A stretch of DNA of 34,402 bases, taken from IMG/VR virus record IMGVR_UViG_2061766007_000740. One strand, given 5' to 3'. The notes under the pieces were generated by a model, which did not search any database, had not been told where the DNA came from, and saw nothing but the letters and a program-made list of their open reading frames with translations. This stretch comes from an uncultured virus (IMG/VR IMGVR_UViG_2061766007_000740). Taxonomy: Duplodnaviria; Heunggongvirae; Uroviricota; Caudoviricetes. The position numbers and the translations under genes are program-made. Within the stretch, counting starts at the first letter, position 1. The number at the start of each line of letters is the position of its first letter. This document shows, piece by piece, positions 6,501 to 29,173 of the stretch.

Positions 6501-7477
6501 GGTTCGCGAGTTGATGTTAGCACAAGCCACGGCAGACCAGAAGTTGCAGATTGAGGAGGCCTACCAGCAAGCTCGGTATGAGTTGGCTAAGAAGTATCAC
6601 GATGAGGAAGGCATGTATGCCGTTGACTCTGCTCAGGCATGGAGCGATAAGGTCGCGGAGTTCTTGCAGTCAGAGGGCGCGCAGAAGTTCCAGAAGGCAT
6701 TCAGTACCATGGTAAACGGCATGGGGCAGATATTCTCCGGTCTCACTTCCCTCATTGACGCAGAAACCGACCTGCAAACCGCGCAGATTGAGAAGCGTTA
6801 CCAGAAGGAGATTGACGCAGCGGGCAACAATAAAGACCTTGTGGCTAAACTGGAAGCCGAGAAGGAGGCAGAGATTGCCAAGGTAAAGAATGAGGCTGAG
6901 GAAAAGAAATATGGTATGGAGATTGCATCGGCCATTGCACAAACGGCGGTTGCTGCNNNNNNNNNNNNNNNNNNNNNNNNNNNNNNNNNNNNNNNNNNNN
7001 NNTGCTGCAGCAATGGCAGTGGCAGCCGGAGCAATTCAGATTGCAGCGATAAAGAAACAACACGAGGCTGCGATGGCGCAGGGTTACGCTGCCGGTGGTT
7101 ATACTGCACCGGGTGGTAAGTACCAGCCTGCCGGTATCGTGCACGCCGGAGAGTGGGTAGCCTCGCAGGAACTGCTTGCGAACCCCACCGCCGCCGCTAC
7201 CATCGCCCAACTCGACCAGGCGCAGAAAACGAACACCATAGGGCAGCTATCGAAACCATCGGTATTTGAGGGTAGCAAACCCCGGTATTCAGAGGGTGCA
7301 AATACCGGTATTCGTGATACGCAAACCCCGGGGGTTAATGTCGGCGAGTCCCTCGACCGGCTTAACAAGACGCTCGATAACGGTATCTATGCGGCAACGA
7401 CCATGACCGGCGATAAGGGTATCCTGCGCCAGCAGCGTCGATATGAACAATTAATGCGTAACAAGTCGAAGAAATGA
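3577..7477 (+). CDS. Tail tape measure protein (~1300 aa; frame breaks at N gaps)
   Basis: Long Ala/Glu/Lys-rich coiled-coil ORF pieces 3577-4293, 4100-4348, 4519-7119 and 6890-7477; TP901-type core (EIMGFGAVLDS, ADMGENGARA); C-terminal GYAAGGYT...AGIVHAGEWV. Confidence 0.9.
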
Positions 7478-9330
7478 AAATCTTAGTTAATGGCAAGCAA
7501 GCGGTGATGAAAGAAGGGTCATCGTTTGAGTATCATTCCGAGAACCCGTTGTTCACGGAAGCGGAAGACTATTCGTTTGATATCGAGTTCCCGATGAAAG
7601 ACTGTCCGCAGAACATCCTTATCTTCGGTGCGCTGCACGTGAAAGGTGTGGATATCTCCACCGTCACGTACCCGTGCCGGATCCAGACGGCGTCGTTCGA
7701 TAAGACCGGCATTCTGACCATCACGGAGGTCAACGACGCTGCCGTCAAAGGTCAGTTCCTCGAAGGTATGAGCACCGACCGTTTCAGTACCGGCGGTCTG
7801 GACATGTACATCGACGAGATTGATTTCTCCCTCATCGACGGCACGAACGGCGATTCGTCCTATGTGATGAGCGATGACCACTTTGTCGATTTGCCGGTAT
7901 GGGATAAGGACGAGGATAAGCTTTTCTCTCTCTTCGCGGATTCATTGCCGGTTCTGCGGCATATCTATCTGCACGAGGTGGTCGATTGGATAGCGTTTCA
8001 GTCTGGGATGGATGTAGATTTGTCTGCTATAGAATCGAGCACAGTCTATCAGCGATTGGTGGTCTGCAATACGACGGATCATGTCAAGTATGTATCAGAT
8101 GTGTTTGATACACCGGGCGTAGTGACCGGTGGCTTCTATTTCATGGATATCGAGAAGACATTGCCGCACTGGACGGTTCGGGAATTCTTCCAGGAGTTGG
8201 CGAAGATGTTCACATGCAAGGCTGTGTTCGATGGTAGTCGGAACTCCGTTAAGTTTCTTCCTATTTCTAACCTCATCGGCAGTTCCGGCAATGTTAACAT
8301 CAATGTATTGGATGACTTCGCGGTGGAGACACAAGATAGCGAGGATAAGGTACGCAAGGCGGTTGAGTTCAAATTCCCGGACGACTGCAACCCGAACAAT
8401 GTGAACAGCTGTCCTTGGATATACGACTATATCGAGCATCTGAAGGTGGTTCAGTTGATTACACAGGAGCAATACAATCCGACATGGTTGGCGCAGCACC
8501 CCTATGCGGATAACGTCTGGTATCGCCGAAGCCGTCTCTATGAATGTGTGAGTAACATAGCCGGTGTGTATGGCATCGTTACAGAGATTACCAAGAGGGA
8601 TGATCTGACGCAGTTCGGCAACCAGTTGCACTTCATCAAGTTCGAAGTGCTCAATCAGTTCTGGAACGAGGATGGGGCAGAGGAATTGAAGATGTACCCG
8701 GCTAACTTGGAATGGAAGCGTATCTTGCGGCATCTGAACTATTGGGAAACGATTGGCAGAGACAGCTATGGAGTTCCCGGATATGTCGATACGGAAGCTA
8801 CTTTCGCTAATCCGTATAAGATGCCGGTTGTGTCGGTTGCCAAATATAGCCCTACAGAGCAACTCTTGGATAATCAATGGGTGTGGAGTGCCGGCGAATT
8901 AGTAGAGCAAGGCTCCCCAAAAGCAGAAATCAAAGGTATTGCCTTGGTAATAGTGAACGGGCAGAGCACTTCGGATGGTAGCCATCTGAACACTCGCAAG
9001 TGGGAGCCGCAGATTGGAACGGAGTATGCACAGGAAACTATTACCGCCACGGAGGGAATCGTTCCGGATTACTACCAGGGTATTCAGGAATATCAATATT
9101 CAATGACTCCGGGCATGTGGTCGGTGGTTGGATCCGCTACGCCGGAACCGCCCCAAGTGGACGAGACGAAGCTCTACAGGTACAAGTTCCTTGCGTCCTC
9201 GCTGCCATCCGCCACGGCCATCTATGTCATCAAGGGCAAACGGTATGCCTGTCTCCGTCTTACGGCACACTTCACCGTGGACGGTATGAGTGAACTTATC
9301 GAAGGCGAGTTCTACGAGATTGTCGGCTAA
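7474..9330 (+). CDS. Tail protein (hub/receptor-binding candidate)
   Basis: 618 aa, ATGA-coupled to the tape measure gene; N-terminal ENPLFTEAEDYSFDIEFP resembles Bacteroidetes siphovirus post-TMP tail proteins. Confidence 0.7.
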   Translation: MKILVNGKQAVMKEGSSFEYHSENPLFTEAEDYSFDIEFPMKDCPQNILIFGALHVKGVDISTVTYPCRIQTASFDKTGILTITEVNDAAVKGQFLEGMSTDRFSTGGLDMYIDEIDFSLIDGTNGDSSYVMSDDHFVDLPVWDKDEDKLFSLFADSLPVLRHIYLHEVVDWIAFQSGMDVDLSAIESSTVYQRLVVCNTTDHVKYVSDVFDTPGVVTGGFYFMDIEKTLPHWTVREFFQELAKMFTCKAVFDGSRNSVKFLPISNLIGSSGNVNINVLDDFAVETQDSEDKVRKAVEFKFPDDCNPNNVNSCPWIYDYIEHLKVVQLITQEQYNPTWLAQHPYADNVWYRRSRLYECVSNIAGVYGIVTEITKRDDLTQFGNQLHFIKFEVLNQFWNEDGAEELKMYPANLEWKRILRHLNYWETIGRDSYGVPGYVDTEATFANPYKMPVVSVAKYSPTEQLLDNQWVWSAGELVEQGSPKAEIKGIALVIVNGQSTSDGSHLNTRKWEPQIGTEYAQETITATEGIVPDYYQGIQEYQYSMTPGMWSVVGSATPEPPQVDETKLYRYKFLASSLPSATAIYVIKGKRYACLRLTAHFTVDGMSELIEGEFYEIVG

Positions 9331-10526
9331 TACGCACCTGCCTTATCATTGATACGCGCTATCAGACCATCGTCGATATGGTCTGCATAGCGTGTTGTCA
9401 TACTCAGGTCACTGTGACCGGCTGCGTGCATCACGTCGATATCTGCCACTCCGTCGAGCAGCAAATCATGGATACCCGTGTCCCGGAGTGAATACAACTG
9501 ATACTTTGCCGGCAGGTGCAACGCTTCCCGCATCTTCATCCATTCCTTAGCGAACATCTGACTGTTCTTGGGCCGGTCACCGTATGTCCAGGCGCGATTG
9601 CTGAACAGGTAATCGTTCGGTCCTGCCCCGGCAAGGTACTTCCGGAGCAACCGTTTCAGTCCGTCATCCATGCGTCCGAAGCGCTCCTTACCGTTCTTCG
9701 TTATCTCTCCCGGCATGACGATGCAACTGCGGTCATACCTTATATTATTAACACGTACGCGCGTAGCCTCTACCGGTCGGAGCAGCGCCGTATAGACCAA
9801 CCGGCACATGAGCTGCATCGCCGGATTGTTGGCGGCAAAGTAAGCGTCAATCTGCAAGCGGGTGCTTTCCGGAATGAGTGTGCGCGTCTTCTGCTTGGTG
9901 CGCTTCGGTTTGATGGTCTCAAACGGATTCTCCTTCGCGTAGCACTTATCGATGCACCAGCTGAAGAATGCCCGCCCGAGCTTCAGGTTACTGTTGAACG
10001 CCCGTTCGGAGATGTGTTCCGCATCCTGCGCTTTCTTCTTGCCTACGTTCTTCCGGGCACTTTGTCCGCTCCAGATCCAGTCCAGGAACTGCACGGCCAT
10101 CATCTTCGTGAATAGCGCACAGTTACACTGCGGGTAGTTCGCATCGAGCCATTCCCGGAGGCGTCCGGTGAACGACCGGTAACAGGGGAGCGAGCTGCTC
10201 GACAGCGCACTCTCTTTCTCCCGCATGTACTGGTCGATAATCTGACCTATCGGCACGTACTCGCGCGTGTTCTGCACCTCGCCCATCGGACTCCAGCCGT
10301 TGGCCAGCCGGATGTTCAGATTGCAGATCACACTCTGACAGTACGCTTTGAACTCGGTCAGGTTCTGGTAACGCTTGCGGATGCGGTTCATCTTCATCGT
10401 CCGGCGCTGCATCTCGCCGGTCAAGCCGTTCAGGAAATAATACTCGATGACATACCCGTGAGTAGTGTACCGACATAGCTTCGCCGGTACATAAGGGGTA
10501 AACTCTAACGTGTGAGACTTAGACAT
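9327..10526 (-). CDS. int: Tyrosine recombinase / phage integrase
   Basis: Catalytic motifs LLRPVE (R), TKNGKER (K), YSLRDT (H/YxxR), AGHSDLSMTTRY (H,Y); adjacent to tRNA-derived att cores. Confidence 0.95.
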   Translation of the reverse strand: MSKSHTLEFTPYVPAKLCRYTTHGYVIEYYFLNGLTGEMQRRTMKMNRIRKRYQNLTEFKAYCQSVICNLNIRLANGWSPMGEVQNTREYVPIGQIIDQYMREKESALSSSSLPCYRSFTGRLREWLDANYPQCNCALFTKMMAVQFLDWIWSGQSARKNVGKKKAQDAEHISERAFNSNLKLGRAFFSWCIDKCYAKENPFETIKPKRTKQKTRTLIPESTRLQIDAYFAANNPAMQLMCRLVYTALLRPVEATRVRVNNIRYDRSCIVMPGEITKNGKERFGRMDDGLKRLLRKYLAGAGPNDYLFSNRAWTYGDRPKNSQMFAKEWMKMREALHLPAKYQLYSLRDTGIHDLLLDGVADIDVMHAAGHSDLSMTTRYADHIDDGLIARINDKAGAY

Positions 10527-10578: not shown

Positions 10579-10694
10579 GTTTAGTATGGTAAACCACCGG
10601 GTTTGGTATGGTCGAATAAAGTTTGGTATGGTCGGAATCAAGTTTGGTATGGTGAGAAGATGAGTTTGGTATTCTCACCGCGCACTTTGGTATT
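10579..10694. repeat. Six phased (G)TTTGGTAT repeats, ~21-bp period, upstream of integrase
   Basis: Copies start at 10579, 10601, 10621, 10642, 10664 and 10685. Confidence 0.85.
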
Positions 10695-11905: not shown

Positions 11906-12238
11906 CTATTCTTTTTTGGGTTTCGATTTGGCTTCGGCTTTGTAGCGCCGGAGGAGTTCGGTGAGGTTCTCAATCATCTCATCTTTCTTCCGGCACTCCT
12001 CGCAATCGGGGTTGACACTGTCCTGCGGGATGTACTTTTCGGGGTAGGTAACGACATCCACAACGGGGATATTAAATTTTTCACAGATTTGTGAAATGGT
12101 ACTGAACTTCAATTCGACCGTTCGGTTGAACCAGTTACTAACGGCAGCATCGGTAACACCCATCGCCTGAGCGACGTTTTTGTGCAAAATACCTCTTTCG
12201 TTGAGGACTGCACCCAGATTTTTTTGTAAGTCAATCAT
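11906..12238 (-). CDS. XRE-family HTH repressor (CI-like)
   Basis: LNERGILHKNVAQAMGVTDAAVSNWFN is a classic XRE HTH; divergent from a Cro-like gene. Confidence 0.85.
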   Translation of the reverse strand: MIDLQKNLGAVLNERGILHKNVAQAMGVTDAAVSNWFNRTVELKFSTISQICEKFNIPVVDVVTYPEKYIPQDSVNPDCEECRKKDEMIENLTELLRRYKAEAKSKPKKE

Positions 12239-12367
12239 AGTACAAAATTAGTAATTTTTTTGTTAATAATATGTTTATAAGTTTGAAGAAAATTTCACTT
12301 ATTCACACATAATTTACACGGGTTTGTTAAATAAAATGCAAAAAAATTAACTTTTTTGTGAAAAAAA

Positions 12368-12399
12368 TTTGGTCAATTCAAAAAAATGTAGTACCTTTG
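12368..12399 (+). promoter_or_regulatory. Bacteroidetes primary-sigma promoter (lytic, rightward)
   Basis: TTTG (12368) - 20 nt - TACCTTTG (12392). Confidence 0.8.
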
Positions 12400-12425
12400 C
12401 GCCGTGAAAGTTAATTTTGCGGTTG

Positions 12426-12457
12426 CAAAGTTACTTATAATTAAACAAAGTAACAAA
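12426..12457 (-). promoter_or_regulatory. Bacteroidetes primary-sigma promoter (repressor, leftward)
   Basis: Minus strand TTTG (12457-12454) - 20 nt - TAACTTTG (12433-12426). Confidence 0.7.
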
Positions 12458-12472
12458 TAAAATCAAGATAAA

Positions 12473-12676
12473 ATGACAAAATTTGAAGAATTTTTCGGAA
12501 ATGTGCGGGATAAGCACACTGAATCGATGCGAAATGACATTATGACGGAGTGTGGTATCTCGGCTCAGTCGTTCCGAAACTGGAGGAAGGGCAAGTTTAA
12601 GCCGGACGTTCAATGGTGGAGCAAGATCAACTCCATCGCAGAGAAGTACGGATATCCGAAACCTTATACGTTGTAA
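12473..12676 (+). CDS. Cro-like HTH protein
   Basis: 67 aa, IMTECGISAQSFRNWRKGKFKP HTH; divergent from the repressor. Confidence 0.8.
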   Translation: MTKFEEFFGNVRDKHTESMRNDIMTECGISAQSFRNWRKGKFKPDVQWWSKINSIAEKYGYPKPYTL

Positions 12677-12955: not shown

Positions 12956-13210
12956 ATGGATGAAAAGAAAGTAACTGAGGTCATGAATGTGGTTGTTGAA
13001 GCGTTCATGTCCGTTGTGAATGAGTATGGTCTGAGTCCGCAGGAAGCTATCACGCTTATTACGGCTGGCACTACCGCTTTTGTGATTGACTCTTGCAAGA
13101 AGTTTTTCTCGAACCCGGGGAAGGCAATTCTTGGCAATTGTACAGAGATGTGTTGCGCTTTTATGGATGCTATCCAAAAGATAGACGATGAGAAAGGAGG
13201 CGCAAAATGA
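12956..13210 (+). CDS. Hypothetical early protein
   Basis: 84 aa in a tightly packed operon. Confidence 0.6.
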   Translation: MDEKKVTEVMNVVVEAFMSVVNEYGLSPQEAITLITAGTTAFVIDSCKKFFSNPGKAILGNCTEMCCAFMDAIQKIDDEKGGAK

Positions 13211-13350
13211 AAGCGATAGTGTATAAGTTCTGCGGGAAGACGATCCTACAGGTCGGCGCTATTCCTAATGTCATTGCAGACCGGATGACCGTTCTCCATG
13301 AGTTGGATATCGATGCTATTCATGTCGAACTGAATAAAGTGGAGGAATAG
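13207..13350 (+). CDS. Small hypothetical protein, 47 aa (not in ORF track)
   Basis: ATGA overlap; MKAIVYKFCGKTILQVG...NKVEE* exactly fills the gap between neighbours. Confidence 0.6.
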   Translation: MKAIVYKFCGKTILQVGAIPNVIADRMTVLHELDIDAIHVELNKVEE

Positions 13351-13352
13351 TT

Positions 13353-13589
13353 ATGACGGATAAGCAGATTGATAAAGTCAACCGCCTGCAGCACCTCATC
13401 TTCGATTTCGGTAGTAAGTTGGAAGACTTCGACAATACCGAACATATGGAGATAATGGGTTATGGTTTGATAGCAGCTTTTGCGAACTACTTTTTGGATG
13501 GTGCTCCGGTGGAGGCGAACCAAGTAGCTGTTCTCAAAGTTAAGGAACTGATGAATAATATATATGACGAAGTGATGAAGGAGGATTAG
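13353..13589 (+). CDS. Hypothetical early protein
   Basis: 78 aa, operon packing. Confidence 0.6.
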   Translation: MTDKQIDKVNRLQHLIFDFGSKLEDFDNTEHMEIMGYGLIAAFANYFLDGAPVEANQVAVLKVKELMNNIYDEVMKED

Positions 13590-13592
13590 GTT

Positions 13593-13739
13593 ATGGCAGC
13601 AACGATTGAGGAAGTGCAGGAGCAGATGTCGAAGATGGCACGCTCCACCAACGCCACAAAGGTTTCCATCGGTTGGGAAGCTACGGAAGGCGGTTACTTT
13701 GAAGTAGTGTATTACATTAAAAAACCACACAACAAATGA
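13593..13739 (+). CDS. Small hypothetical protein, 48 aa (not in ORF track)
   Basis: MAATIEEVQEQMSKMARS...KKPHNK*; ATGA overlap with the next gene. Confidence 0.6.
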   Translation: MAATIEEVQEQMSKMARSTNATKVSIGWEATEGGYFEVVYYIKKPHNK

Positions 13740-13972: not shown

Positions 13973-14192
13973 ATTTACAGTAGGCAATAGCCGAATAGTG
14001 GTGGATATCGCCAAAATCACAATGCTAACTTATAACGGGCCGACTCCTGTCTTTCCTAACGGGGTGACGATTATCACCCTCACGGACGGCAAGATGTACC
14101 GCTTCGAAGGAGCCAATAACGATGTTCTCTATCGGGAGATCCTGGATAAGATGTCTCCGGATAACGGCACAACCAACTTATTACGGACATGA
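13959..14192 (+). CDS. Hypothetical protein
   Basis: 77 aa, overlaps both neighbours. Confidence 0.55.
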   Translation: MTIHEFTVGNSRIVVDIAKITMLTYNGPTPVFPNGVTIITLTDGKMYRFEGANNDVLYREILDKMSPDNGTTNLLRT

Positions 14193-14704
14193 GTAAGTAT
14201 CGTATCATACCGTTCACAGCGGAGTGGCGGCAGAAGGGGCACAGCATCGCCGAGTACACGATGGAGCCTTGCCCCTACCGCCAGACCTGCGACCACGGCG
14301 TTATCGGTCTCGGTTCGCATAAATGCCAGAAGTGCCCGCATTGTGTCAAGCGTGACTTGGAGGCACGGACGGTGGAGTGCAGCTTCGATATCCTCGACCT
14401 CTCGCTCACCTACCATTGGTACGACGAGATAGCGTCCGGTCGCAAGACGGAGGAGTACCGCGAGCTGACCTACTACTGGTACAAGCGGCTGCTGGATCCG
14501 GATGCGCATGAGATGCTGAACCGGCTGGAGGACGCCAGGTGTTTCCGCAAGTACGATGCCGTACGGTTCCATCGCGGTCAGGGCGGCAAGCAGACGATGC
14601 TCTTTGAGTGCAAGGAGATACATATCGGATACGGAGCGCCGTGGCTCGGAGCACCGGAGGACCGGAAAGTATTTATCATCCCATTGGGACACCGATTAAA
14701 TTGA
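14189..14704 (+). CDS. ASCH/PUA-like domain protein with N-terminal Cys cluster
   Basis: LSLTYHWYDEIASGRKTEEYRELTYYW matches the ASCH GxKxxExR motif; CPY..C..KCQKCPHC at the N-terminus. Confidence 0.75.
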   Translation: MSKYRIIPFTAEWRQKGHSIAEYTMEPCPYRQTCDHGVIGLGSHKCQKCPHCVKRDLEARTVECSFDILDLSLTYHWYDEIASGRKTEEYRELTYYWYKRLLDPDAHEMLNRLEDARCFRKYDAVRFHRGQGGKQTMLFECKEIHIGYGAPWLGAPEDRKVFIIPLGHRLN

Positions 14705-14714
14705 TCTTTGAATA

Positions 14715-15431
14715 ATGTTAAGTGAAGTATATTATGGTGATTGCTTGGAGTACATGAGGACGATACCGGATAAGCACGTTGCGCTGGCCTTGGTAGACCC
14801 TCCGTACTTCAGCGGTCCGGAACGCAGAGGGTATTACGGTAGCGAGATCTCTACCACCAAGATCCAGCGGCGACACTATCCCAAGTCGGAGAAGTGGTCG
14901 GTTCCGGGCAAAGAGTTCTTTGATGAATTGATGCGTGTCAGTCGCAAGTATGTGGTCTTCGGCTGCAACTATTTCGACTATCACTTCCATTCCGGAAGAA
15001 TCGTTTGGGATAAGTGCAACGGCCAGAGCACCTTCAGCGACTGCGAGTTAGCAGCAACCAACCTGTTCGACCATGTGCGGATGTTCAAGTACATGTGGAA
15101 CGGGATGATGCAAGGCTCGTCTATCGAACACGGCGATGTGATGCAGGGTAACAAGTCCAAGAATGAATTCCGCATCCATCCCACGCAGAAGCCTGTCGCC
15201 TTGTACGGCTGGATCTTGAAGCAATATGCTCCGGACGGGTTGGTGCTCGATACTCATCTTGGCAGCGGTAGTAGTCGCATAGCCGCCTACAAGTTAGGCT
15301 TCGACTTTATCGGCTGCGAGTGGGATAAGCAGTACTTCGACGCGCAGGAGATGCGGTTTCAGAAGGAGTGCCTTGGTACGGTAGTCCTTCAGGACGGAAA
15401 GAAATTGAGACAAGGAAACTTGTTCGAGTGA
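14715..15431 (+). CDS. N6-adenine/N4-cytosine DNA methyltransferase (beta class, orphan)
   Basis: DPPY catalytic motif precedes HPTQKPVALY and the SAM-binding VLDTHLGSGSS. Confidence 0.92.
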   Translation: MLSEVYYGDCLEYMRTIPDKHVALALVDPPYFSGPERRGYYGSEISTTKIQRRHYPKSEKWSVPGKEFFDELMRVSRKYVVFGCNYFDYHFHSGRIVWDKCNGQSTFSDCELAATNLFDHVRMFKYMWNGMMQGSSIEHGDVMQGNKSKNEFRIHPTQKPVALYGWILKQYAPDGLVLDTHLGSGSSRIAAYKLGFDFIGCEWDKQYFDAQEMRFQKECLGTVVLQDGKKLRQGNLFE

Positions 15432-15444
15432 TCATTGAATAACT

Positions 15445-15779
15445 GATTAGCAGGTTAGGGGCTGAGTAAGGAAGCCCTGATAAGCAGAAGACAGGCGGTT
15501 GGCTCCGTATTAAGTTCGGAGAGTGCACGGTCTCGTGTGGTCACTATAATGAAGGCACAGCAATGTGCGTATAAGCGACGAAGGCCACAGACGAGGAATA
15601 AGACAGTGAATGAGGCTGCATGAATGTCTCGCACTATGCATGGTTCGTGGAGGAGATAATAACCCGCACACGACTCCCCCTTGCATAGGGTTCTGAAAAG
15701 TTTGCCCTCGCTCCTCGTTACCGCGCATCTGGCTACCCGCCGCCTGTGCCATCTTAAACTTAGGACTCGCCTGCTAATC
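15445..15779 (+). ncRNA. Predicted large structured RNA, copy A (~335 nt)
   Basis: Nested stems GATTAGCAGG/CCTGCTAATC, ACAGGCGG/CCGCCTGT, GTGCACGGT/ACCGCGCAT, TGTGGTC/GGCCACA, ACGAGGA/TCCTCGT, CTATGCA/TGCATAG and a GCAA tetraloop. Confidence 0.75.
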
Positions 15780-15867
15780 TTTACTAAAATGGAGTTGCTA
15801 CCATTCAAAGAGCAAAGTGATCTTTTATATAAACCTCATTTACTACAACAATTTATTAACTAATCAG

Positions 15868-16222
15868 GGTGCTAAGGACACCATTAAAAACAGTTTTATG
15901 AAGACTAATTTTATGACATCGCGAGCTAATAACTCGCAAGTAATTAACCGTAGCTATTGGAATTGTTTGCAGTAAAGCAGACGGTTCCATGGTTACGATT
16001 ATTGTTAAACGGTCGGGAATGCTATGATTCCAGCAATGGATGAGAGCGTCCGGGAACGGGTGATGGAGTAAAGGCATGTCGGCTACGAGATTGTCGGATA
16101 GATAATGGAGAGTTGAGTCGGAGAAGGTTAGGCACCGTCGTGGTGATGTTGCGAGCGTTCGCGTAAATGGGGGTAATTTTGAACATCAAGGCATGTGGGG
16201 ATTGGTTTCCCCCATGCTGACT
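15868..16222 (+). ncRNA. Predicted structured RNA C
   Basis: 21-bp G-U-rich hairpin at 15949-15997, several short hairpins, and a closing stem AGTCGG/CTGACT. Confidence 0.55.
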
Positions 16223-16245
16223 AAAGTAATCTAATTTTGAGAATT

Positions 16246-16479
16246 ATGAAAGAAGTATTAATCCGTAAGGCTTGGGTAGCAAGAGATGATGGTTACGAAG
16301 GCGAGGATGGCGACTTATGTCTATTCTGTAACAAGCCAAAGAAGACAACCATCGGAGGTCTCGGATGTTGGTTAGACATGTATCACGAACCGGAGTATTT
16401 GGATAGTAAGTTGTTCCCACAAATCAAGTGGGAGGACGAAGAGCCTACCGAGGTAGAAGTGTTAGTAAGGTTATGTTAG
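16246..16479 (+). CDS. Hypothetical phage protein (xWVARD type)
   Basis: MKEVLIRKAWVARDDG...FPQIKWEDEEPTEV, 77 aa. Confidence 0.7.
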   Translation: MKEVLIRKAWVARDDGYEGEDGDLCLFCNKPKKTTIGGLGCWLDMYHEPEYLDSKLFPQIKWEDEEPTEVEVLVRLC

Positions 16480-16640
16480 AAGACGATATCAAAGCTCTGA
16501 AGGAGTTTGCAGAGTGGAATAGGAAAGGAGCAGCGGCTGCAAAGCTGATGTTCGAGACAGGGGGTAGAGTGATATTAGACCCCGACGATCTGGAGATAGA
16601 TAAGAACGCGGAGATATTGTTCTTAAGAAGTGATCATTGA
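16473..16640 (+). CDS. Small hypothetical protein, 55 aa
   Basis: MLEDDIKALKEFAEW..., start overlaps the previous stop. Confidence 0.5.
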   Translation: MLEDDIKALKEFAEWNRKGAAAAKLMFETGGRVILDPDDLEIDKNAEILFLRSDH

Positions 16641-16643
16641 CAT

Positions 16644-17211
16644 ACAGAGGTTAGGCTCCGAGTAAGGAGGAGCAAGATATAAGGCTGCCGGTGGTTGTGC
16701 CTCGAGTAAGGAGAGGCAGATATGAGGAAGCACGCGGATAAAACAGAGTGAACGTGGCTCTACGTAATACGACCAACACGACCGCGTGTCGTATTGAAAT
16801 GTGGGACCGCCACCGGATGGGTGCTAACAGCCATGGTTGGATTANNNNNNNNNNAATAAAACAGAGTGAACGTGGCTCTATGTAATATCGGCAACACGAC
16901 CGCGTGTCGTACTGAAATGTGGGACCGCCACCGGATGGGTGCTAACAGCCATGGTTGGATTANNNNNNNNNNGGAGAAAAGGTATACTTTTCCCTATAGA
17001 AAAGGTATACTTTTCCCTATAGANNNNNNNNNNAAGCCCTGCGCCATGGTTCGCGTCCGCCCATCGGAGAGGCTACGGAATATCCCCCTGAGAAAAGGTA
17101 TACTTTTCCCTATAGAAAAGGTATACTTTTCCCTATAGAAAAGGTATACTTTTCCTCGGGGGTAGCAAAAAAGGGTCTCTCAGCAGCCGAAAGGCCCGGA
17201 CTCGCCTCTGT
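16644..17211 (+). ncRNA. Predicted large structured RNA, copy B (interrupted by N gaps and variant duplication)
   Basis: Stems ACAGAGG/CCTCTGT, GGCTGC/GCAGCC, CCGGTGGT/GCCACCGG, CACGCGG/CCGCGTG, GATGGG/CCCATC, GAGAGGC/GTCTCTC; two GAGTAAGGA-loop hairpins. Confidence 0.7.
17084..17172. repeat. 23-bp tandem palindromic repeat (AGAAAAGGTATACTTTTCCCTAT) x~3 within CCCCC/GGGGG ends
   Basis: Seen directly; a further fragment lies between gaps at 16973-17023. Confidence 0.9.
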
Positions 17212-17397
17212 TAACTTACACCGGTTACCATGGCCGGTGAGAGCAAAAGGATAAATTACGTTTTCATGGTTAAGGTATTAGTCAAGGGTGTTCAGCCTGT
17301 GAAGGTCGGAGCCCGCCCGGGGGAGCGTGGGTGACACCACCATCCCTCACCAACAATTAACAAGATTGTCTAACTTAAAAACGAAAGGAAAATTGTT

Positions 17398-17551
17398 ATG
17401 ATTACTGAAGAGAACTGCAATGAAGCAGTATTCGAAGCAACGAAGTACGTCTCGCAGAAGCTGGGAGACAAAGTAATGGAAGCGCTTGAAGCGGACGATA
17501 AGTCGCTGGAGGTGTTCCTGATCGGAATGGCGAACTATCTCTGCTTATCGG
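17398..17551 (+). CDS. Hypothetical protein, partial (ends in N gap)
   Basis: A-rich Bacteroidetes-type leader, then MITEENCNEAVFEATKYVSQKLG... Confidence 0.55.
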
Positions 17552-18558: not shown

Positions 18559-21153
18559 ATGGACGAGGAGAAAAAGAGTTATCTGCAAGAGCGGGTGTTT
18601 GACCTGTGCGGTCTGACCCGCGAGCAGGTGTCGCTTCCATTGAAGTGGCATAACAAGCCGGCAGAGTGGCACGACCCGGACGACTTCGACGAGAAGATCG
18701 GCATGGGCCGCCTCTACCTCGCCGACAACGGGGAAGGCACGATGGTGCCACAGTTCCCCCTGTTCCAGTCCGATAAGGATGACAACATCCGGATGTACCC
18801 TTACACCCTGGACGGCAAGCTCATCAGTTACCTGCGGGACAAACAGCCGAAGTACGCCGACGGTGAGGTAGAGGATTTCTACTTCATCACGCGTCTCAGT
18901 CCGGCGAACTGGGCAGAAGCCAAGAAGTCCGACTCGCAAGCCGGCAAGTACCGTTACCCGGGCGGCGAGACGAAGAAAGGTACATACCCGTTCTTCCCGC
19001 CGGAGCTGTACCGCAAGTATCTAAAGGGCGAGCATATCGAGACAGTCATCCTGACGGAAGGCTATATGAAAGCGATGTGCGCTTCGGTGCACGGCATGGC
19101 TGTCATCGGTCTCGGTTCGGTCACGCTCTATAAGGACGGCAAGACCAAGCAACTGTACCCCGATATCGTGCGGTTCCTCAATACCGTCAAGCCGGATAAC
19201 ATCATCATCCTGTACGACGGCGACTGCACCAACCCGTGGCGTACCGGCAGCAAAGAGACATGGCGCGAGACGCCGGACCTCTCCAAGCGTCCGCAGTCGT
19301 TCATGTCCTCGCTGCTCCGCCTCAAGGACTTGCTGCTGGAGTTCAAGAACGCCCAGGGCAATCCCTGCGAGCTGTTCTTTGCCTATGTCAATAAGATGCA
19401 GGACGACGAGGAGATAGAGGACGAGCGTACCGGCGAGAAGATCATCGTCAATAACAGTCCCAAGGGCCTCGACGACCTGATTGTCGATGAGCACTACAAG
19501 ACGGAGGTCGAAGCTATTGCCGACGACCTCAACCATCCGGGCCGCACAGGTATCTATTTCGTCAAGAAGAACCTGCGTACCTGCAACGACGGTAACATCC
19601 GCACCATCTTCCATCTGGAGTCGCCGGAAGCGTTCTACAAGGAGTGGGAGCCGCAGATCAAGAACCACGAGTTCCGCTACAAGGGCGCTACCTACCGTTA
19701 TCTGGAGAGTGAGAAGAAACTGGTGCAGCTGCTGGACCAATCGCTCAAGGACTATGTCGCCATCGGCTCGGAGATAGTGCTGGTGACGGAGAAGCCCATC
19801 CCCGGAGCCAAGTCAGGCACGGTGCAGGACTTCTACACCATCGCCGATAAGGTCATCAATGCGCAATGCGGCAAAGGCACCTCGGAGAAGCTGTACAAGT
19901 ACAAGCATTTCATCTCGACCACCGTAGAACCCGACCATATCAATTTCAGCCGCGAGATAATCAACAGCATGGGTTACCGGTTCTACAACATCTATTCGCC
20001 GCTGCCGTCCAAACCGGTGCAGGGCAAGTGGCCGCACATCGAGAAGCTGCTGCGTCAGATCACGAAAGAGTATCCGGAGGACACCTTCCATTACTACGAG
20101 ATGCTGCTGGACTGGATTACCATCGCGTACTTCTATCCTCGCGAGTTCCTGCCAATCATCATGCTCGTCAGCCGTGACCGCGCTACCGGTAAGACTTCCT
20201 TCCTCAACCTGCTCAAGGCGATCTTCGGCAACAATACCGTCATCGGCGATAACAACCTGCTCGATACGAACTTCAACTCGATGCTTGCCGGCAAACTGAT
20301 TGTCGGCATCGATGAGTCGTGCCTGGGCGAGAATAAGGCGGTCGGCGAGAAGCTCAAGTACTTATCGACCACCCGCACCATCCTCGTCGAGCGCAAGGGT
20401 AAGGATAAGCAGGAGGTGCCGTCGTTCCTCAAGTTCGTGTTGTGCTCGAACGAGGTGCGCAAGGCCGTGTTCATCGCCAAGGATGAGATACGCTTCTGGG
20501 TGATGCGTCTGACACCATGGCCGGATGACGGCGAGCGTATCGAGGGCGACGACGAGACCAAGAACTACTCGGAGTTCATCGAGGAGGAAGTACCGGCATT
20601 CCTGTACTTCCTGCAGAAGCGGTTCAACAGCAAGCAGATGTTCGTCCCGCAACGGGAGAATAACAGCCGCATGTGGTTCGACCCCAAACGCATCTACAAC
20701 GACGACCTCGCGACGATGATGGCCGGTACCGCGTCCAACTTCGAAGGCTCGCTCATGTCCTTCCTCGAAGAGATGTTCAAGGACACCGGCGCGATGACGC
20801 TGGAGTTCGATACCGATTATATTCAGAAGTATGTGCCGGACGCAGCGCGTAAGGACCAGCAGTATATCCGCAATCTGCTCTCCGACATGCCTGGCGTGAC
20901 CAAGTCTAAGGACAGCCACAAGGTGCGCTTCGCTATGCGTATCACCGAGGAGGATAAGCGCAACGGAGCCAAGGAGGATGTCGGCACCGTCTATTGGGCA
21001 CGGGAGAGCAAGCAATGCCGTCCGTTCGTCTTTAATGCGGAGTACTTCGTCTCACCGGCTGATCTGAACGAGATGAAGCAACGCAAGGTCAAGACTGACT
21101 CTGCCGCCGCGCAGTCCGGTCAGAAGGATACACAATCAGATTTACCTTTCTAA
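18559..21153 (+). CDS. Toprim primase fused to SF3-like helicase
   Basis: Toprim ILTEGYMKA, LYDGD, PKGLDD; helicase Walker A SRDRATGKTS, Walker B IVGIDE, motif C FVLCSN; C-terminal DLPF. Confidence 0.88.
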   Translation: MDEEKKSYLQERVFDLCGLTREQVSLPLKWHNKPAEWHDPDDFDEKIGMGRLYLADNGEGTMVPQFPLFQSDKDDNIRMYPYTLDGKLISYLRDKQPKYADGEVEDFYFITRLSPANWAEAKKSDSQAGKYRYPGGETKKGTYPFFPPELYRKYLKGEHIETVILTEGYMKAMCASVHGMAVIGLGSVTLYKDGKTKQLYPDIVRFLNTVKPDNIIILYDGDCTNPWRTGSKETWRETPDLSKRPQSFMSSLLRLKDLLLEFKNAQGNPCELFFAYVNKMQDDEEIEDERTGEKIIVNNSPKGLDDLIVDEHYKTEVEAIADDLNHPGRTGIYFVKKNLRTCNDGNIRTIFHLESPEAFYKEWEPQIKNHEFRYKGATYRYLESEKKLVQLLDQSLKDYVAIGSEIVLVTEKPIPGAKSGTVQDFYTIADKVINAQCGKGTSEKLYKYKHFISTTVEPDHINFSREIINSMGYRFYNIYSPLPSKPVQGKWPHIEKLLRQITKEYPEDTFHYYEMLLDWITIAYFYPREFLPIIMLVSRDRATGKTSFLNLLKAIFGNNTVIGDNNLLDTNFNSMLAGKLIVGIDESCLGENKAVGEKLKYLSTTRTILVERKGKDKQEVPSFLKFVLCSNEVRKAVFIAKDEIRFWVMRLTPWPDDGERIEGDDETKNYSEFIEEEVPAFLYFLQKRFNSKQMFVPQRENNSRMWFDPKRIYNDDLATMMAGTASNFEGSLMSFLEEMFKDTGAMTLEFDTDYIQKYVPDAARKDQQYIRNLLSDMPGVTKSKDSHKVRFAMRITEEDKRNGAKEDVGTVYWARESKQCRPFVFNAEYFVSPADLNEMKQRKVKTDSAAAQSGQKDTQSDLPF

Positions 21154-21995: not shown

Positions 21996-22005
21996 GTACC
22001 TAAAC

Positions 22006-22056
22006 CATCCTAAAAACATCCTATCGACATCCTAAAAACATCCTATTTGCATCCTA
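22006..22056. repeat. Five CATCCTA repeats at an exact 11-bp period
   Basis: Starts at 22006, 22017, 22028, 22039 and 22050. Confidence 0.9.
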
Positions 22057-25748: not shown

Positions 25749-25864
25749 AACCCCTATGGGTTGGATACATAAACCCCCCGGGGGGTAAGGTATACTTTTC
25801 CCTATAGAAAAGGTATACTTTTCCCTATAGAAAAGGTATACTTTTCCTCGGGGGTAGCAAAAAA
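25749..25864. repeat. Second locus of the 23-bp palindromic repeat element
   Basis: 25787-25864 is identical to 17095-17172 (78 bp). Confidence 0.9.
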
Positions 25865-25874
25865 AAGAGTTATT

Positions 25875-26405
25875 ATGGACGAAAAATTAACCAAAGAGCT
25901 TCAGCAATGGCTCAATACCGATGCTGAGCAGAGAGACATCGCGACCGGCGTCCGGCTGGTGCGCGTATTGGTACGCAACCAGATACTGGCCAACGGCTTC
26001 GAGCGCCTTCCCAAGAAGTACATGAAGACNNNNNNNNNNNNNNNNNNNNNNNNNNNNNNNNNNNNNNNNNNNNNNNNNNNNNNNNNNNNNNNNNNNNNNN
26101 NNNNNNNNNNNNNNNNNNNNNNNNNNNNNNNNNNNNNNNNNNNGGATTTCAAACTCGGTAAGCGCCCGGACCACAACCGTCTGCCGGAGGAGATTCAGGC
26201 GCTCTATTCCGAGAACCTCTCCATCATGCAGAACATGCGAGCCTGCCATGCGCAGCTCATCCTCCTCTCCCTGCCGGAGAATCAGTCTTCCTGTCCGGAT
26301 GGCGACCGCTATCCGTTCGTAAAGGAACTGATTGATCTGGACCAACGCTACCACGCCAACTGGCAGAAGTACGACTCCTATCCGCCGGTGGATGACGAGC
26401 AATAA
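25875..26405 (+). CDS. Conserved phage hypothetical protein (internal gap)
   Basis: GKRPDHNRLPEEIQALY...NWQKYDSY; phage codon usage. Confidence 0.65.
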   Translation: MDEKLTKELQQWLNTDAEQRDIATGVRLVRVLVRNQILANGFERLPKKYMKXXXXXXXXXXXXXXXXXXXXXXXXXXXXXXXXXXXXXXXDFKLGKRPDHNRLPEEIQALYSENLSIMQNMRACHAQLILLSLPENQSSCPDGDRYPFVKELIDLDQRYHANWQKYDSYPPVDDEQ

Positions 26406-29113: not shown

Positions 29114-29173
29114 ATAGTAAACCCCATAGTAAACTTATAGTAAACTTATAGTAAACTTATAGTAAACTTATAG
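29114..29173. repeat. 11-bp tandem repeat ATAGTAAACTT (~5 copies)
   Basis: ATAG starts at 29114, 29126, 29137, 29148, 29159 and 29170. Confidence 0.9.

What the first reader, a model, noticed from the sequence alone, without database searches (positions are those of the whole stretch)
15427..17215. A family of large multi-stem non-coding RNAs, two diverged copies in the early operon
Seen: A (15445-15779) and B (16644-17211) are dissimilar overall but share an architecture. Both have an upstream AGTGATCATTGA; a closing stem ending GG followed by TTAGG; a hairpin with loop GAGTAAGGA (once in A, twice in B, three different stems); a second long-range stem; an internal AGT-GAAYGWG-GCT hairpin after ACGMGG-A(A)TAA; and GGACTCG immediately before the 3' strand of the closing stem (GATTAGCAGG/CCTGCTAATC vs ACAGAGG/CCTCTGT). 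Loop GAGT could pseudoknot with ACTC of GGACTCG. A has at least eight nested helices. Inference: conserved loops on covarying stems indicate a functional RNA, such as a ribozyme, put-like antiterminator, protein sponge or GOLLD/ROOL-like large phage RNA. I do not recognise it as a named family.
Basis: partly seen in the sequence, partly recalled or inferred. Interest (0 to 1): 0.85.

Follow-up and report, generated by a model that had tools for sequence, protein, structure and literature searches.

The report
Nested loop-displaying phage RNA family
Two non-coding stretches among the early genes of a cattle-gut phage are built from one small RNA fold, used singly, in rows and nested inside itself, which no RNA catalogue holds and whose job is still unknown.

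Summary
They are composites of one smaller unit. It has a 7-10 bp closing stem ending GG, a 4-nt linker, a 5-bp hairpin with a 9-nt loop NANUAAGNN, a variable interior, and then A(C/A)(U/C)CG before the 3' strand. The window holds four units, two nested in A and two in B.

Related viral and metagenome contigs and two prophage-bearing genomes carry the unit alone (64-100 nt), in tandem rows, or nested up to 381 nt. At least 18 different closing stems stay complementary. No Rfam family matches.

In three metatranscriptome runs, contigs on B, and in two of them on A, are deeper than those on neighbouring genes. This is a weak hint.

Corrections:
- Window 16845-17033 of B is a scaffolding artefact.
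- The upstream GATCWTTGA is a general module junction.
- The proposed GAGU:ACUC pseudoknot is not supported. ACUCG pairs with the linker instead.

Function is unknown. My best guess is a stable loop-displaying scaffold or decoy RNA.

The parts
15427..15438 (+). Junction motif AGTGATCATTGA. It holds the stop codon of the methylase ORF (14715-15431) and puts stops in several frames. It is a module boundary, not part of the fold.
   Evidence: Exact repeat D12. GATCWTTGA occurs 3 times on the + strand and 0 times on the - strand of the window, at 14703, 15430 and 16632. In relatives the upstream genes differ but the motif stays.
15445..15779 (+). Element A (335 nt): an outer unit enclosing an inner unit.
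   Evidence: There are 12 distinct A-type relatives of 199-362 nt.
15445..15458 (+). A outer unit, 5' strand of closing stem P1 (15445-15454) plus linker UUAG (15455-15458).
   Evidence: It pairs with 15765-15779 (I11). The linker pairing is inferred from covariation across units.
15459..15477 (+). A outer hairpin P2: GGGCU / AGCCC with loop GAGUAAGGA (15464-15472).
15491..15747 (+). A inner unit: P1b 15491-15498 / 15740-15747, linker UUGG 15499-15502 pairing into ACCCG 15735-15739, and hairpin 15503-15521 with loop UAUUAAGUU.
   Evidence: Model R1 hit at 15489-15749, 30.8 bits, E 2e-4; this unit was not in the seed. Unit table.
15604..15618 (+). Small hairpin CAGU-GAAUGAG-GCUG after GGAAUAAGA, a sub-module shared with B and many relatives.
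   Evidence: The same sub-module with other stems (AGCG/CGCU, AGAG/CUCU) appears.
15765..15779 (+). A outer unit, 3' motif ACUCG (15765-15769) plus the 3' strand of P1 (15770-15779).
15786..16236 (+). Module C: a further ORF-poor stretch with its own long-range stem (15818-15843 / 16163-16188) and a hairpin with loop CUAAGGA. Its 5' half is conserved in two relatives.
   Evidence: I1; 3-way alignment. Not analysed further.
16629..16640 (+). Second copy of the junction motif. It holds the stop codon of ORF 16428-16640.
16644..17211 (+). Element B as printed (568 nt including gaps). The true length is about 380 nt plus an unknown number of tip hairpins.
   Evidence: There are 11 other distinct B-type relatives of 167-381 nt.
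16644..16673 (+). B outer unit: P1 5' strand ACAGAGG (16644-16650), linker UUAG (16651-16654), and hairpin GCUCC / GGAGC with loop GAGUAAGGA (16655-16673).
   Evidence: RNAalifold on 11 B-type relatives predicts P1, the U-G, A-U and G-C extension pairs and P2.
16683..16688 (+). 5' strand of second long-range stem GGCUGC, pairing with GCAGCC at 17183-17188.
   Evidence: Read. RNAalifold did not pair these two strands: it paired columns 44-46 of this 5' stretch with 113-115, and a different 5' stretch (116-120) with the 3' strand at 392-396, in an alignment that misaligns short and long forms. The stem therefore rests on reading alone.
16688..16816 (+). B inner unit: CCGGUGG / CCACCGG, linker UUGU pairing into GACCG (16805-16809), and hairpin 16699-16717 with loop GAGUAAGGA.
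   Evidence: R1 hit at 16685-16819, 73.3 bits; this unit was in the seed..
16845..17033 (.). Assembly artefact: three runs of 10 N, a second strain variant of 16738-16844, and a loose piece of the hairpin repeat.
   Evidence: searches (D2, 95%; L113), 40, and 41 (loose ends at 16844; X1 records 7 and 8).
17084..17173 (+). Tip cassette: CCCCC...GGGGG enclosing at least three 23-nt hairpin repeats (GAAAAGGUAUACUUUUC), followed by an A run. This is the hypervariable part of B.
   Evidence: Relatives carry other hairpins or other repeats at the same tip.
17183..17211 (+). B 3' end: GCAGCC, CGAAAGGCCCGG, ACUCG (17200-17204), and P1 3' strand CCUCUGU (17205-17211).
17212..17397 (+). Module C': a non-coding stretch after B, partly conserved in relatives.
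   Evidence: Not analysed further.

Best explanation
A and B are RNA-level elements read on the + strand with the early operon. They are built from one recurring three-way-junction unit. The parts of the unit are: a closing helix P1 that ends G-G/C-C; a 4-position extension (U-G, a pyrimidine-C or A-C mismatch, then two Watson-Crick pairs) formed by the linker UU(A/G)(G/U) and the 3' motif A(C/A)(U/C)CG; a 5-bp hairpin P2 that displays a 9-nt loop NANUAAGNN; and a free interior that can hold a plain hairpin, conserved sub-modules, hypervariable repeats or another whole unit. The phage lineage uses the unit singly, in tandem rows and nested. The window has two units in A and two in B. Shown here: the fold, its covariation, its strand, its absence from Rfam, and its restriction to phages and prophages. 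Inferred: the units accumulate as stable RNAs cut out of or outlasting the early transcript, and act in trans as scaffolds that present several UAAG-bearing loops and junction strands to a partner. That partner would be a host or phage RNA-binding protein or nuclease, so the RNA would work as a sponge or decoy. The variable interior and tip would carry lineage-specific cargo. My odds: real structured family 0.9; acts as RNA on the + strand 0.8; trans-acting loop-display scaffold or decoy 0.35-0.4.
For: Shared motifs sit at the stated coordinates. Pattern scans specified only linker and loop letters, with the stems left as N. They found family members in 9 of 32 matches, 12 of 35, 21 of 36 metagenome matches, 7 of 7 and 9 of 97. 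Of 92 candidate NANTAAGNN hairpins, 49 have a 3' partner that meets the full grammar. The rate is 4.9% after shuffling the downstream DNA and 10.6% with other candidates' downstream DNA. There are 13 different P1 heptamers in 28 distinct units, one more in L168 and four in G427. On 14 short units, 90.5% of cells pair against 60.4% in shuffles (0 of 500 shuffles reach it), and 15 of 18 pairs change on both sides. Slid controls pair at 35-51%. RNAalifold on 11 B-type sequences finds P1, the extension and P2 by itself. For the strand: the U-G at the first extension pair is present in 13 of 14 units and other G-U pairs occur, and all R1 hits have one orientation, the same as the flanking genes. 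R1 hits fall only in family loci: 35 hits over 89 loci, and 7 hits over 77 loci, most of which are chance matches to the loop pattern. Loops swap on one scaffold (GAGUAAGGA, GAAUAAGGA, UAUUAAGAC), keeping U-A-A-G. TAAG is the most enriched 4-mer: 58 seen against 15.5 expected in 4,082 nt, and it is present in 18 of 18 elements. No ORF is conserved. Element lengths differ by non-multiples of 3, near-identical copies differ by 1 nt, and the open frame changes. Pfam finds nothing in 6 overlapping ORFs. For RNA abundance: in X12 the contig on B has depth 101 against 8 and 27 for gene contigs. In X17 the contig on B has 461 and the one on A has 75, against 3-16 for gene contigs. In X16 a short A contig has 106 and the B bins have 13-20, against 3-5. 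The DNA run X1 is flat at 9-20. tRNA genes lie next to units in two unrelated contigs.
Against: The folding energy of A is not unusual (z -1.72; 4 of 100 shuffles fold as well). The units used for the pair counts were picked by a grammar that demands pairing, so the high paired percentages are partly built in. The independent support is the null rates, the N-stem scans. RNA evidence comes from contigs only. Contigs give no strand, no ends and one depth figure per contig. Conserved elements also sum depth over several related phages, and DNA carry-over in RNA libraries is possible. One X12 contig (601 nt) joins 255 nt of an upstream gene to B, so B is at least partly co-transcribed or is DNA. 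No promoter-like or terminator-like site stands out on the + strand (7 and 4 sites against 9.1 and 5.8 expected). No partner protein was found: neighbouring proteins have no informative Pfam, PHROG, NCBIfam or PADLOC match apart from the methylase and the primase. The family is narrow. It is mostly one phage group from gut metagenomes of ruminants, plus a few distant minimal units.
Confidence: 0.5

Rival explanations
1. The units are cis-acting parts of the polycistronic early mRNA. They could be processive antitermination signals of the put/nut kind, barriers to exonucleases, or processing and insulation elements between gene cassettes. They would not be free RNAs.
For: The units lie inside an operon of co-oriented genes with no promoter or terminator signal around them. 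An RNA-library contig joins an upstream gene to B. Several diverged copies lie along one operon. The units sit at cassette boundaries beside the junction motif.
Against: A lies about 3 kb and B about 4.2 kb from the divergent promoter region, after about ten genes, not just behind a promoter. Units occur in tandem rows of three or four with no genes between them, and right after tRNA genes. One minimal unit is followed by a T run. Contigs on B and A are several-fold deeper than those on flanking genes in RNA libraries (weak).
Confidence: 0.25
2. The units are self-processing RNAs, either ribozymes or substrates of cellular cutting and joining. P1 would bring the ends together so that the RNA is released, and perhaps circularised.
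For: One metatranscriptome contig (X17 record 25, 387 nt, depth 461) is circularly permuted. About 144 nt ending in the 3' end of a B element run straight into window 16642, two bases before P1 (tables 7 and 8). Its length fits a circle of about 357 nt plus an assembler overlap of 30. That overlap size is my assumption. The closing stem is the right geometry for end joining.
Against: Tandem units with 0-7 nt between them exist in DNA, so a B-B tandem explains the contig as well. No known ribozyme family matches. No sequence is conserved at the unit borders beyond P1. Contigs cannot show joints made in RNA only.
Confidence: 0.08
3. The conserved pairing serves DNA, not RNA. It would be a single-strand initiation or origin region for the neighbouring primase-helicase, with the tip repeats acting as iterons, or a set of recombination hot spots for module exchange.
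For: B lies 1.3 kb upstream of a primase/helicase gene (DUF3854 + DUF5906). The tip carries 22-23-nt tandem repeats that differ between phages. Truncated units lie at module joints (L067, L127). G-T wobble is also possible in single-stranded DNA.
Against: Spacing between the half-sites of the tip hairpins varies (5, 8 and 11-12 nt in G002), which fits hairpins and not a dimer site. Units occur far from replication genes and next to tRNAs. The same tip cassette also lies in the late region at 25784-25846. L077 has an 88% identical primase but no B-type unit in the 7 kb upstream. RNA-library depth is raised.
Confidence: 0.07
4. The units are small selfish mobile elements (MITE-like, or inserted at the RNA level) that insert into each other, which would explain the nesting.
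For: There is nesting, truncated copies, variable positions between phages, and a possible short repeat (TAATC) at the two ends of module C in the window.
Against: The terminal stems differ in sequence between units while staying complementary (13 or more versions). That is selection for pairing, not for a transposase site. No transposase or related gene is nearby. No unit was found outside phage or prophage context in 151 genomes searched with R1.
Confidence: 0.04

Closest known systems
ROOL and GOLLD RNAs (large ornate bacterial and phage RNAs; Weinberg et al. 2017, PMC5737381, passages read)
   Same: They are non-coding, multi-junction and of unknown function. ROOL was first seen in cow rumen data. 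Both are often in prophages and near tRNAs. Here the element is in a temperate phage (integrase and repressor), runs labelled bovine or goat gut hold it, and tRNAs lie beside units in two relatives.
   Different: There is no match to any Rfam model even at E<=10. Sizes are 64-381 nt against about 581 nt for ROOL. The element is built from a repeated, nestable unit rather than one fixed architecture. No pseudoknot is supported.
HK022 put RNAs / lambda nut sites (cis-acting antitermination RNAs of phage early operons; recalled, no call)
   Same: Diverged copies of a folded RNA lie within the early transcription units of a temperate phage.
   Different: The units lie kilobases from the promoter region, occur in tandem rows and next to tRNAs, and vary greatly in size. 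Action on RNA polymerase cannot be tested here.
CsrB/RsmZ-type sponge RNAs (recalled, no call)
   Same: Many short hairpins display one short motif. Here UAAG is 3.7-fold enriched.
   Different: The GGA that defines CsrA sites is dispensable. GAGUAAGGA and UAUUAAGAC loops replace each other on the same scaffold. The host-like genome is Bacteroidota-like. Whether it has CsrA was not tested.
Stable small RNAs of phage tRNA clusters, such as T4 species 1 and 2 RNAs (recalled, no call)
   Same: They are tRNA-sized folded RNAs of unknown role, encoded beside phage tRNA genes and closed by a terminal stem.
   Different: The units are not called as tRNAs.
ToxI-type antitoxin repeat arrays and phage pseudo-ToxI decoys (recalled, no call)
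   Same: The tip of B carries tandem RNA-hairpin repeats whose number and type change between close relatives.
   Different: The repeats are 23 nt and embedded in a larger fold. No toxin gene follows, and no PADLOC model matches 17 of 18 neighbouring proteins; the one match is the methylase.

Membership tests
Any Rfam 15 family (4227 models, which I take to include ROOL, GOLLD, tRNA and the small self-cleaving ribozymes) | Scores at or above the family's gathering threshold in cmscan. | tested here: not met
   0 matches in the whole window at gathering. The 10 matches at E<=10 in 15300-17450 are all eukaryotic miRNA, snoRNA or lncRNA models at 23.3 bits or less, far below their thresholds. In 10 relatives' loci (15,406 nt) only 2 tRNAs and 1 weak miRNA hit were found.
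ROOL / GOLLD | Genomic context: prophages, often next to tRNAs (PMC5737381). | tested here: met
   Integrase and HTH repressor in the window. tRNA-Val lies beside units in L047/L125 and a tRNA lies directly upstream of the unit in L131. The window itself has no tRNA.
ROOL | [quoted passage not shown] | tested here: not met
   Units are 64-139 nt alone and composites are 167-381 nt. The one proposed pseudoknot fails in 6 of 28 units.
tRNA / tRNA-like | Cloverleaf recognised by ARAGORN or the Rfam tRNA model. | tested here: not met
   No unit is called. Only true neighbouring tRNAs are found.
CsrB/RsmZ-type sponge | Repeated GGA-bearing hairpin loops. | tested here: not met
   12 of 28 distinct units have GGA in the loop and 16 of 28 do not. 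Both loop kinds occur on the same scaffold.
Type III toxin-antitoxin (ToxI-like array), for the tip of B | A tandem RNA repeat array directly upstream of an endoribonuclease toxin gene. | tested here: not met
   Repeats are present, but the next ORFs have no PADLOC, Pfam or PHROG match to a toxin.
put/nut-type antitermination RNA | Acts in cis on RNA polymerase just downstream of an early promoter. | not testable with these tools
   Only position can be read. A is about 3 kb and B about 4.2 kb downstream of the repressor/early divergent region at 12238-12473.
MITE / IS-derived element | Terminal inverted repeats conserved in sequence, plus target-site duplications. | tested here: not met
   The terminal stems differ in sequence with compensatory changes: 13 heptamers, and 5 of 7 P1 pairs change on both sides.
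Self-cleaving ribozyme | Site-specific self-scission. | not testable with these tools
   No model match. Activity needs a bench test.

The most novel reading that the evidence does not exclude
The unit is a recursive RNA building block that this phage lineage multiplies into arrays of very stable, possibly circular, RNAs. In this reading their 5-bp stems and U-AAG-purine loops imitate a host RNA stem-loop, for instance an anticodon arm, and soak up a host RNA-targeting defence nuclease or RNA-binding protein. The hypervariable tips would carry further decoys. That would make it an RNA-only anti-defence island beside the phage's orphan methylase and tRNA genes.
Probability: 0.15. Interest if true: 0.9.

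Novelty: new variant of a known kind. Interest (0 to 1): 0.72.

Why it matters
Phage-borne ornate RNAs such as GOLLD and ROOL are among the least understood large RNAs. This family shares their setting: a temperate phage, tRNA neighbours and a ruminant gut origin. It differs in being built from a small unit that can be studied alone at 64-100 nt. That size is convenient for structure probing, pull-downs and crystallography or cryo-EM. The unit is self-similar: it nests inside itself, its loops can be swapped and its tip is hypervariable. Such modular growth is unusual for natural RNAs and offers a natural example of it. If the loops turn out to be decoys or sponge sites, it would add an RNA-only layer to phage counter-defence in Bacteroidota-like hosts, where few RNA regulators are known.

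Tried and rejected
- **Folding energy as evidence.** The z-scores of -1.72 and -1.51 are not significant.
- **BLAST against 50,697 phage records.** No match.
- **BLAST of 15420-17400 against 401 genomes of the family of G001.** Six genomes have a match. Only G001 matches over element parts; the other five are 25-39-nt matches.
- **Genome contigs pattern scan.** Six stretches, and 0 of 6 have a paired hairpin, so these are chance.
- **Pattern for GGTTAGG with a UAUUAAGAC loop.** 0 hits.
- **Minimal-unit pattern.** It found only the contig of L036.
- **GAGU:ACUC pseudoknot.** Three units keep ACUCG with a UAUUAAGAC loop (L002, L123, L131). Three units have a GAGUAAGGA or GAAUAAGGA loop with (A/G)ACCG. 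So it fails in 6 of 28 units.
- **Loop-to-junction pairing in window A (UAAGUU with AACUUA).** L103 has the same loop but lacks the complement.
- **Reverse complements of the loops elsewhere in the window.** 0 hits.
- **Promoter and terminator scan.** At or below shuffle level.
- **Coding.** Stop-free minus-strand frames exist (for example 107 of 111 codons in A). But the frame differs between variants, 1-nt indels separate near-identical copies, and Pfam finds nothing.
- **Tip repeat ATTGTTTGCTAATA as a copy of a host repeat or CRISPR repeat.** Matches in 401 genomes are at control level. The excess in G245 is a dispersed one-mismatch repeat, not an array.
- **Papers.** A search for the four loop strings gave 515 papers; the 15 listed were primers and unrelated (listing only). 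The supplements of PMC10690425 had 0 occurrences in the 6 files searched; files 1, 2 and 4 were not searchable, so that candidate list may still hold the motif.
- **Earlier findings of this scan.** None for this genome or by sequence. The word search returned eight unrelated findings.
- **Stretches of the window without cover in RNA contigs.** These are not used as evidence.
- **L168.** Only 18.6 bits with R1 (E 0.12), so it is a doubtful member.


Full report
**Setting**

The window is a temperate phage or prophage. A tyrosine integrase lies at 9327-10526 on the minus strand, and an HTH repressor at 11906-12238 on the minus strand. A plus-strand operon of small genes starts near 12473. It is followed by an N6/N4 DNA methylase (14715-15431), a primase-helicase (DUF3854 + DUF5906, 18559-21153) and a ClpP-like protease.

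The nearest genome held (G001, which shares 39% of sampled words) has six SusD hits and no Spo0A_C hit. The host is therefore Bacteroidota-like. Besides the possible source sample, 13 run rows from 10 studies hold 35-44% of the sampled words of 14700-16840. These runs are labelled bovine, goat or other gut metagenome. I laid only X1, X12, X16 and X17.

**The observation**

- the 12-mer AGTGATCATTGA, twice
- GGACTCGCCT, twice
- three GGUU(A/G)(G/U)G-hairpin-GAGUAAGGA modules on different stems
- the 10-bp closing stem of A
- the second long-range stems
- the AGUGAAYGNGGCU hairpins

No plus-strand ORF of 60 aa or more lies inside A or B, apart from a 60-aa TTG frame (15681-15863) and a frame that runs across the N gaps. 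Folding energy alone does not single A out (z -1.72 and -1.51).

**B as printed is partly an artefact**

B holds three runs of ten N, at 16845-16854, 16963-16972 and 17024-17033. Between them lie a 95% identical second copy of a 117-nt segment and a loose piece of a 23-nt hairpin repeat.

The metagenome contig L113 is nearly identical to B at its 5' end and lacks the gaps. It reads GGATTA directly into AAGCCCTGCGCC and is 358 nt long. The same continuation is seen as loose ends in runs X1 and X17, and X1 carries two variants of 16707-16824. So 16845-17033 is a scaffolded strain bubble plus a collapsed repeat. The true B is about 380 nt plus an unknown number of tip hairpins.

**Relatives**

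The phage record collection gave no BLAST match. The nearest genome G001 and virus record G002 carry homologues: an A-type and a B-type element in G002, and a 167-nt B-type element in G001.

I then scanned public collections with patterns that fix only the linker and loop letters and leave the stems as N. Family members were:
- 9 of 32 matches
- 12 of 35 matches
- 21 of 36 metagenome matches
- 7 of 7 matches
- 9 of 97 matches
- 0 of 6 in the species-representative genomes

This gave 12 distinct A-type elements (199-362 nt) and 12 distinct B-type elements (167-381 nt, plus the gapped window copy). Further types also appeared:
- a 64-nt minimal unit, followed by a T run, in a GC-rich viral contig (L036)
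- minimal units in L126 and L131
- a D type of 86-96 nt (L047, L066, L127)
- rows of three or four units in G403 and G427

**The unit**

Comparing all of these shows that A and B are composites of one unit. The unit has these parts, in order:
- P1, of 7-10 bp, whose last two pairs are G-C in all 14 aligned units. In the TACGGAG-type units, which were not in that alignment, the second-to-last P1 pair is A-U.
- a 4-nt linker: UUAG, UUGU, UUGG, UCGG, UAGG, UAGU, UAAG or CAAG
- a 5-bp hairpin P2 with a 9-nt loop
- a free interior
- a 5-nt motif: ACUCG, GCUCG, (A/G)ACCG, (A/C)CCCG or ACCCA
- the 3' strand of P1

The loop is GAGUAAGGA in 11 of 28 distinct units, GAAUAAGGA in 1, UAUUAAGAC in 13, UAUUAAGUU in 2 and UAUUAAGAU in 1.

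The linker pairs with the 3' motif. Position 1 forms U-G, C-G or U-A. Position 2 always faces a C. Positions 3 and 4 form A-U/G-C, G-C/U-A, G-C/G-C or G-U/G-C. RNAalifold, run on 11 B-type sequences without any input from me, predicts this same extension together with P1 and P2.

The window holds four units: A outer, A inner (15491-15747), B outer and B inner (16688-16816).

**Statistics and their limits**

Of 92 candidate NANTAAGNN hairpins in all fetched DNA, 49 have a 3' partner that meets the whole grammar. The rate is 4.9% (453 of 9,200) after shuffling the downstream sequence. It is 10.6% (850 of 7,994) when another candidate's downstream DNA is used.

The 28 distinct real units use 13 different P1 heptamers. 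L168 adds one and G427 adds four.

On an alignment of 14 short units:
- 90.5% of cells pair, against 60.4% in shuffles (0 of 500 shuffles reach it)
- 15 of 18 pairs change on both sides
- P1 is 96.9% paired, the extension 100% and P2 98.6%
- sliding the partner by 1-3 columns gives 35-51%

These units were chosen by a grammar that requires pairing, so the percentages are partly built in. The independent evidence is the N-stem scans, the null rates.

A covariance model of the unit (R1) finds the A inner unit, which was not in its seed, at 30.8 bits. It gives 35 hits over 89 loci, all in family loci and all on one strand. It gives 7 hits over 77 further loci, none in the loci that merely contain the loop pattern by chance.

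**Strand and coding**

Several G-U pairs would be A-C mismatches on the other strand. The most notable is the U-G at the first extension pair, present in 13 of 14 units. All model hits share the orientation of the flanking genes, in the window and in G404 and G407.

Minus-strand stop-free frames exist, but their frame changes between variants. Near-identical copies differ by single-base indels, and element lengths differ by non-multiples of three. Pfam finds nothing in six overlapping ORFs.

**What is not part of the fold**

GATCWTTGA occurs three times on the plus strand, at 14703, 15430 and 16632. Two of these copies flank the methylase gene. In DNA run X1, one contig joins 14715 directly to the start of A, which is a variant without the methylase (table 7).

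In relatives the genes upstream of the motif differ completely. The motif also follows a tRNA-like sequence. It provides the stop codon of whichever ORF comes before it. I read it as a module junction used in cassette exchange.

The GAGU:ACUC pseudoknot fails in 6 of 28 units.

**Known families**

No Rfam model matches at gathering level in the window. Nothing credible appears at E<=10 in 15300-17450, or at E<=1 in ten relatives' loci, apart from two genuine tRNAs. ARAGORN calls no unit.

ROOL and GOLLD share the setting: cow rumen origin, prophages and tRNA neighbours (passages of PMC5737381 read). They share neither the model nor the architecture.

The candidate list of Fremin et al. 2023 (PMC10690425; I read the abstract and outline, and searched 6 supplementary files) showed none of the loop strings. 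Three of its files could not be searched.

**Expression**

Only assembled contigs of runs could be laid, so strand, ends and local depth are not visible. Depth also sums over related phages. With that caveat, the figures are:

| Run | Type | Contigs on B | Contigs on A | Contigs on gene stretches |
|---|---|---|---|---|
| X12 | RNA | 101 | no separate A contig (the 26.8-depth gene contig runs on into A) | 8 and 27 |
| X16 | RNA | bins of 13-20 | 106 (88-nt contig) | 3-5 |
| X17 | RNA | 461 | 75 | 3-16 |
| X1 | DNA | no contig outside 9-20 | no contig outside 9-20 | 9-20 |

This is a weak hint that the elements accumulate as RNA.

One X12 contig joins an upstream gene to B. One X17 contig is circularly permuted, with the 3' end of a B element running into the 5' start. 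This could mean a circular RNA. It could equally come from a tandem pair in DNA, and such pairs exist.

**Other features bearing on function**

- TAAG is the most enriched 4-mer in 18 representative elements. It occurs 58 times against 15.5 expected and is present in all 18. About half of the occurrences lie outside the P2 loops, mostly as AUAAG in junction strands.
- Loops with and without GGA replace each other on the same scaffold. This argues against a CsrA-type site and for recognition of U-A-A-G.
- The tip of B is hypervariable. The window has 23-nt hairpin repeats, G002 has three unlike hairpins with the same stem ends, and other phages have GAUUGUUUGCUAAUA-type repeats or nothing.
- The window's tip cassette recurs in the late region at 25784-25846. 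In G002 it occurs only in B.
- With model R1, units were found in 2 of 151 related genomes (G001 and G427, same genus). So they are phage cargo, not host housekeeping RNAs.
- Neighbouring proteins gave no clue to a partner.

**Verdict**

This is a real, uncatalogued, modular family of structured RNAs in phages of ruminant-gut Bacteroidota-like hosts, with a few distant minimal members elsewhere.

The mechanism is open. I favour stable trans-acting scaffolds that display UAAG loops to a protein or nuclease, at about 0.35-0.4. The rivals are a cis role in the early transcript (0.25), self-processing or circular RNA (0.08), a DNA-level role (0.07) and selfish elements (0.04).

Noticed in passing
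window 14703-15438: The orphan DNA methylase gene is a cassette flanked by two copies of the junction motif GATCWTTGA. A contig of DNA run X1 joins 14715 directly to the start of element A, so variants without the methylase circulate.
   Followed up: partly
window 25774-25868: A second copy of the B-tip cassette (C run, 2.7 copies of the 23-nt hairpin repeat, G run, A run) lies in the late region just upstream of ORF 25875-26405. The relative G002 has the hairpins only in B.
   Followed up: partly
window 15786-16236 and 17212-17397: Two further ORF-poor stretches (modules C and C') have their own long-range stems and a CUAAGGA-loop hairpin. The 5' half of C is conserved in G403 and L047. In relatives C sits at other positions relative to the genes.
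   Followed up: partly
L132 1490-1650; L125/L047 near the tRNA-Val; L067: A hairpin with a conserved loop ending GYGACGGAUAG precedes a tRNA-Val and a tRNA-like sequence that ARAGORN does not call. In L067 a B-type element is cut off and joined to that tRNA-like sequence.
   Followed up: no
window 13190-13600: Three consecutive early genes carry strong Shine-Dalgarno-like GGAGG boxes 7-9 nt before the start codon, although the host-like genome is Bacteroidota-like. That such hosts rarely use these boxes is recalled, not tested.
   Followed up: no
window 10601-10672, 7260-7331, 22002-22045, 29114-29173: Other tandem repeats: 21 nt x 3.4 next to the integrase gene, 23 nt x 3.1, 11 nt x 4.0 and 11 nt x 5.4.
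   Followed up: no
window 14189-14704: The 171-aa protein upstream of the methylase contains SGRKTEEYR, which fits the GxKxxExR signature I recall for ASCH (PUA-like, putative RNA-binding) domains. Pfam gave no hit even at E<=10, and PHROG 625 is of unknown function.
   Followed up: partly
window 16222-16245 and the 3' flank of A in L013, L025, L026 and G002: The 3' strand of A's closing stem runs into UAAUUUUGAC/GNAUUAUG, directly before the next start codon. In the window the same sequence follows module C instead, as if C had been inserted at ..TAATC.
   Followed up: no
G245 (genome of the same family): A dispersed repeat containing ATTGTTTCCTAATA occurs about 20 times across many contigs. 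It is unrelated to the finding.
   Followed up: no
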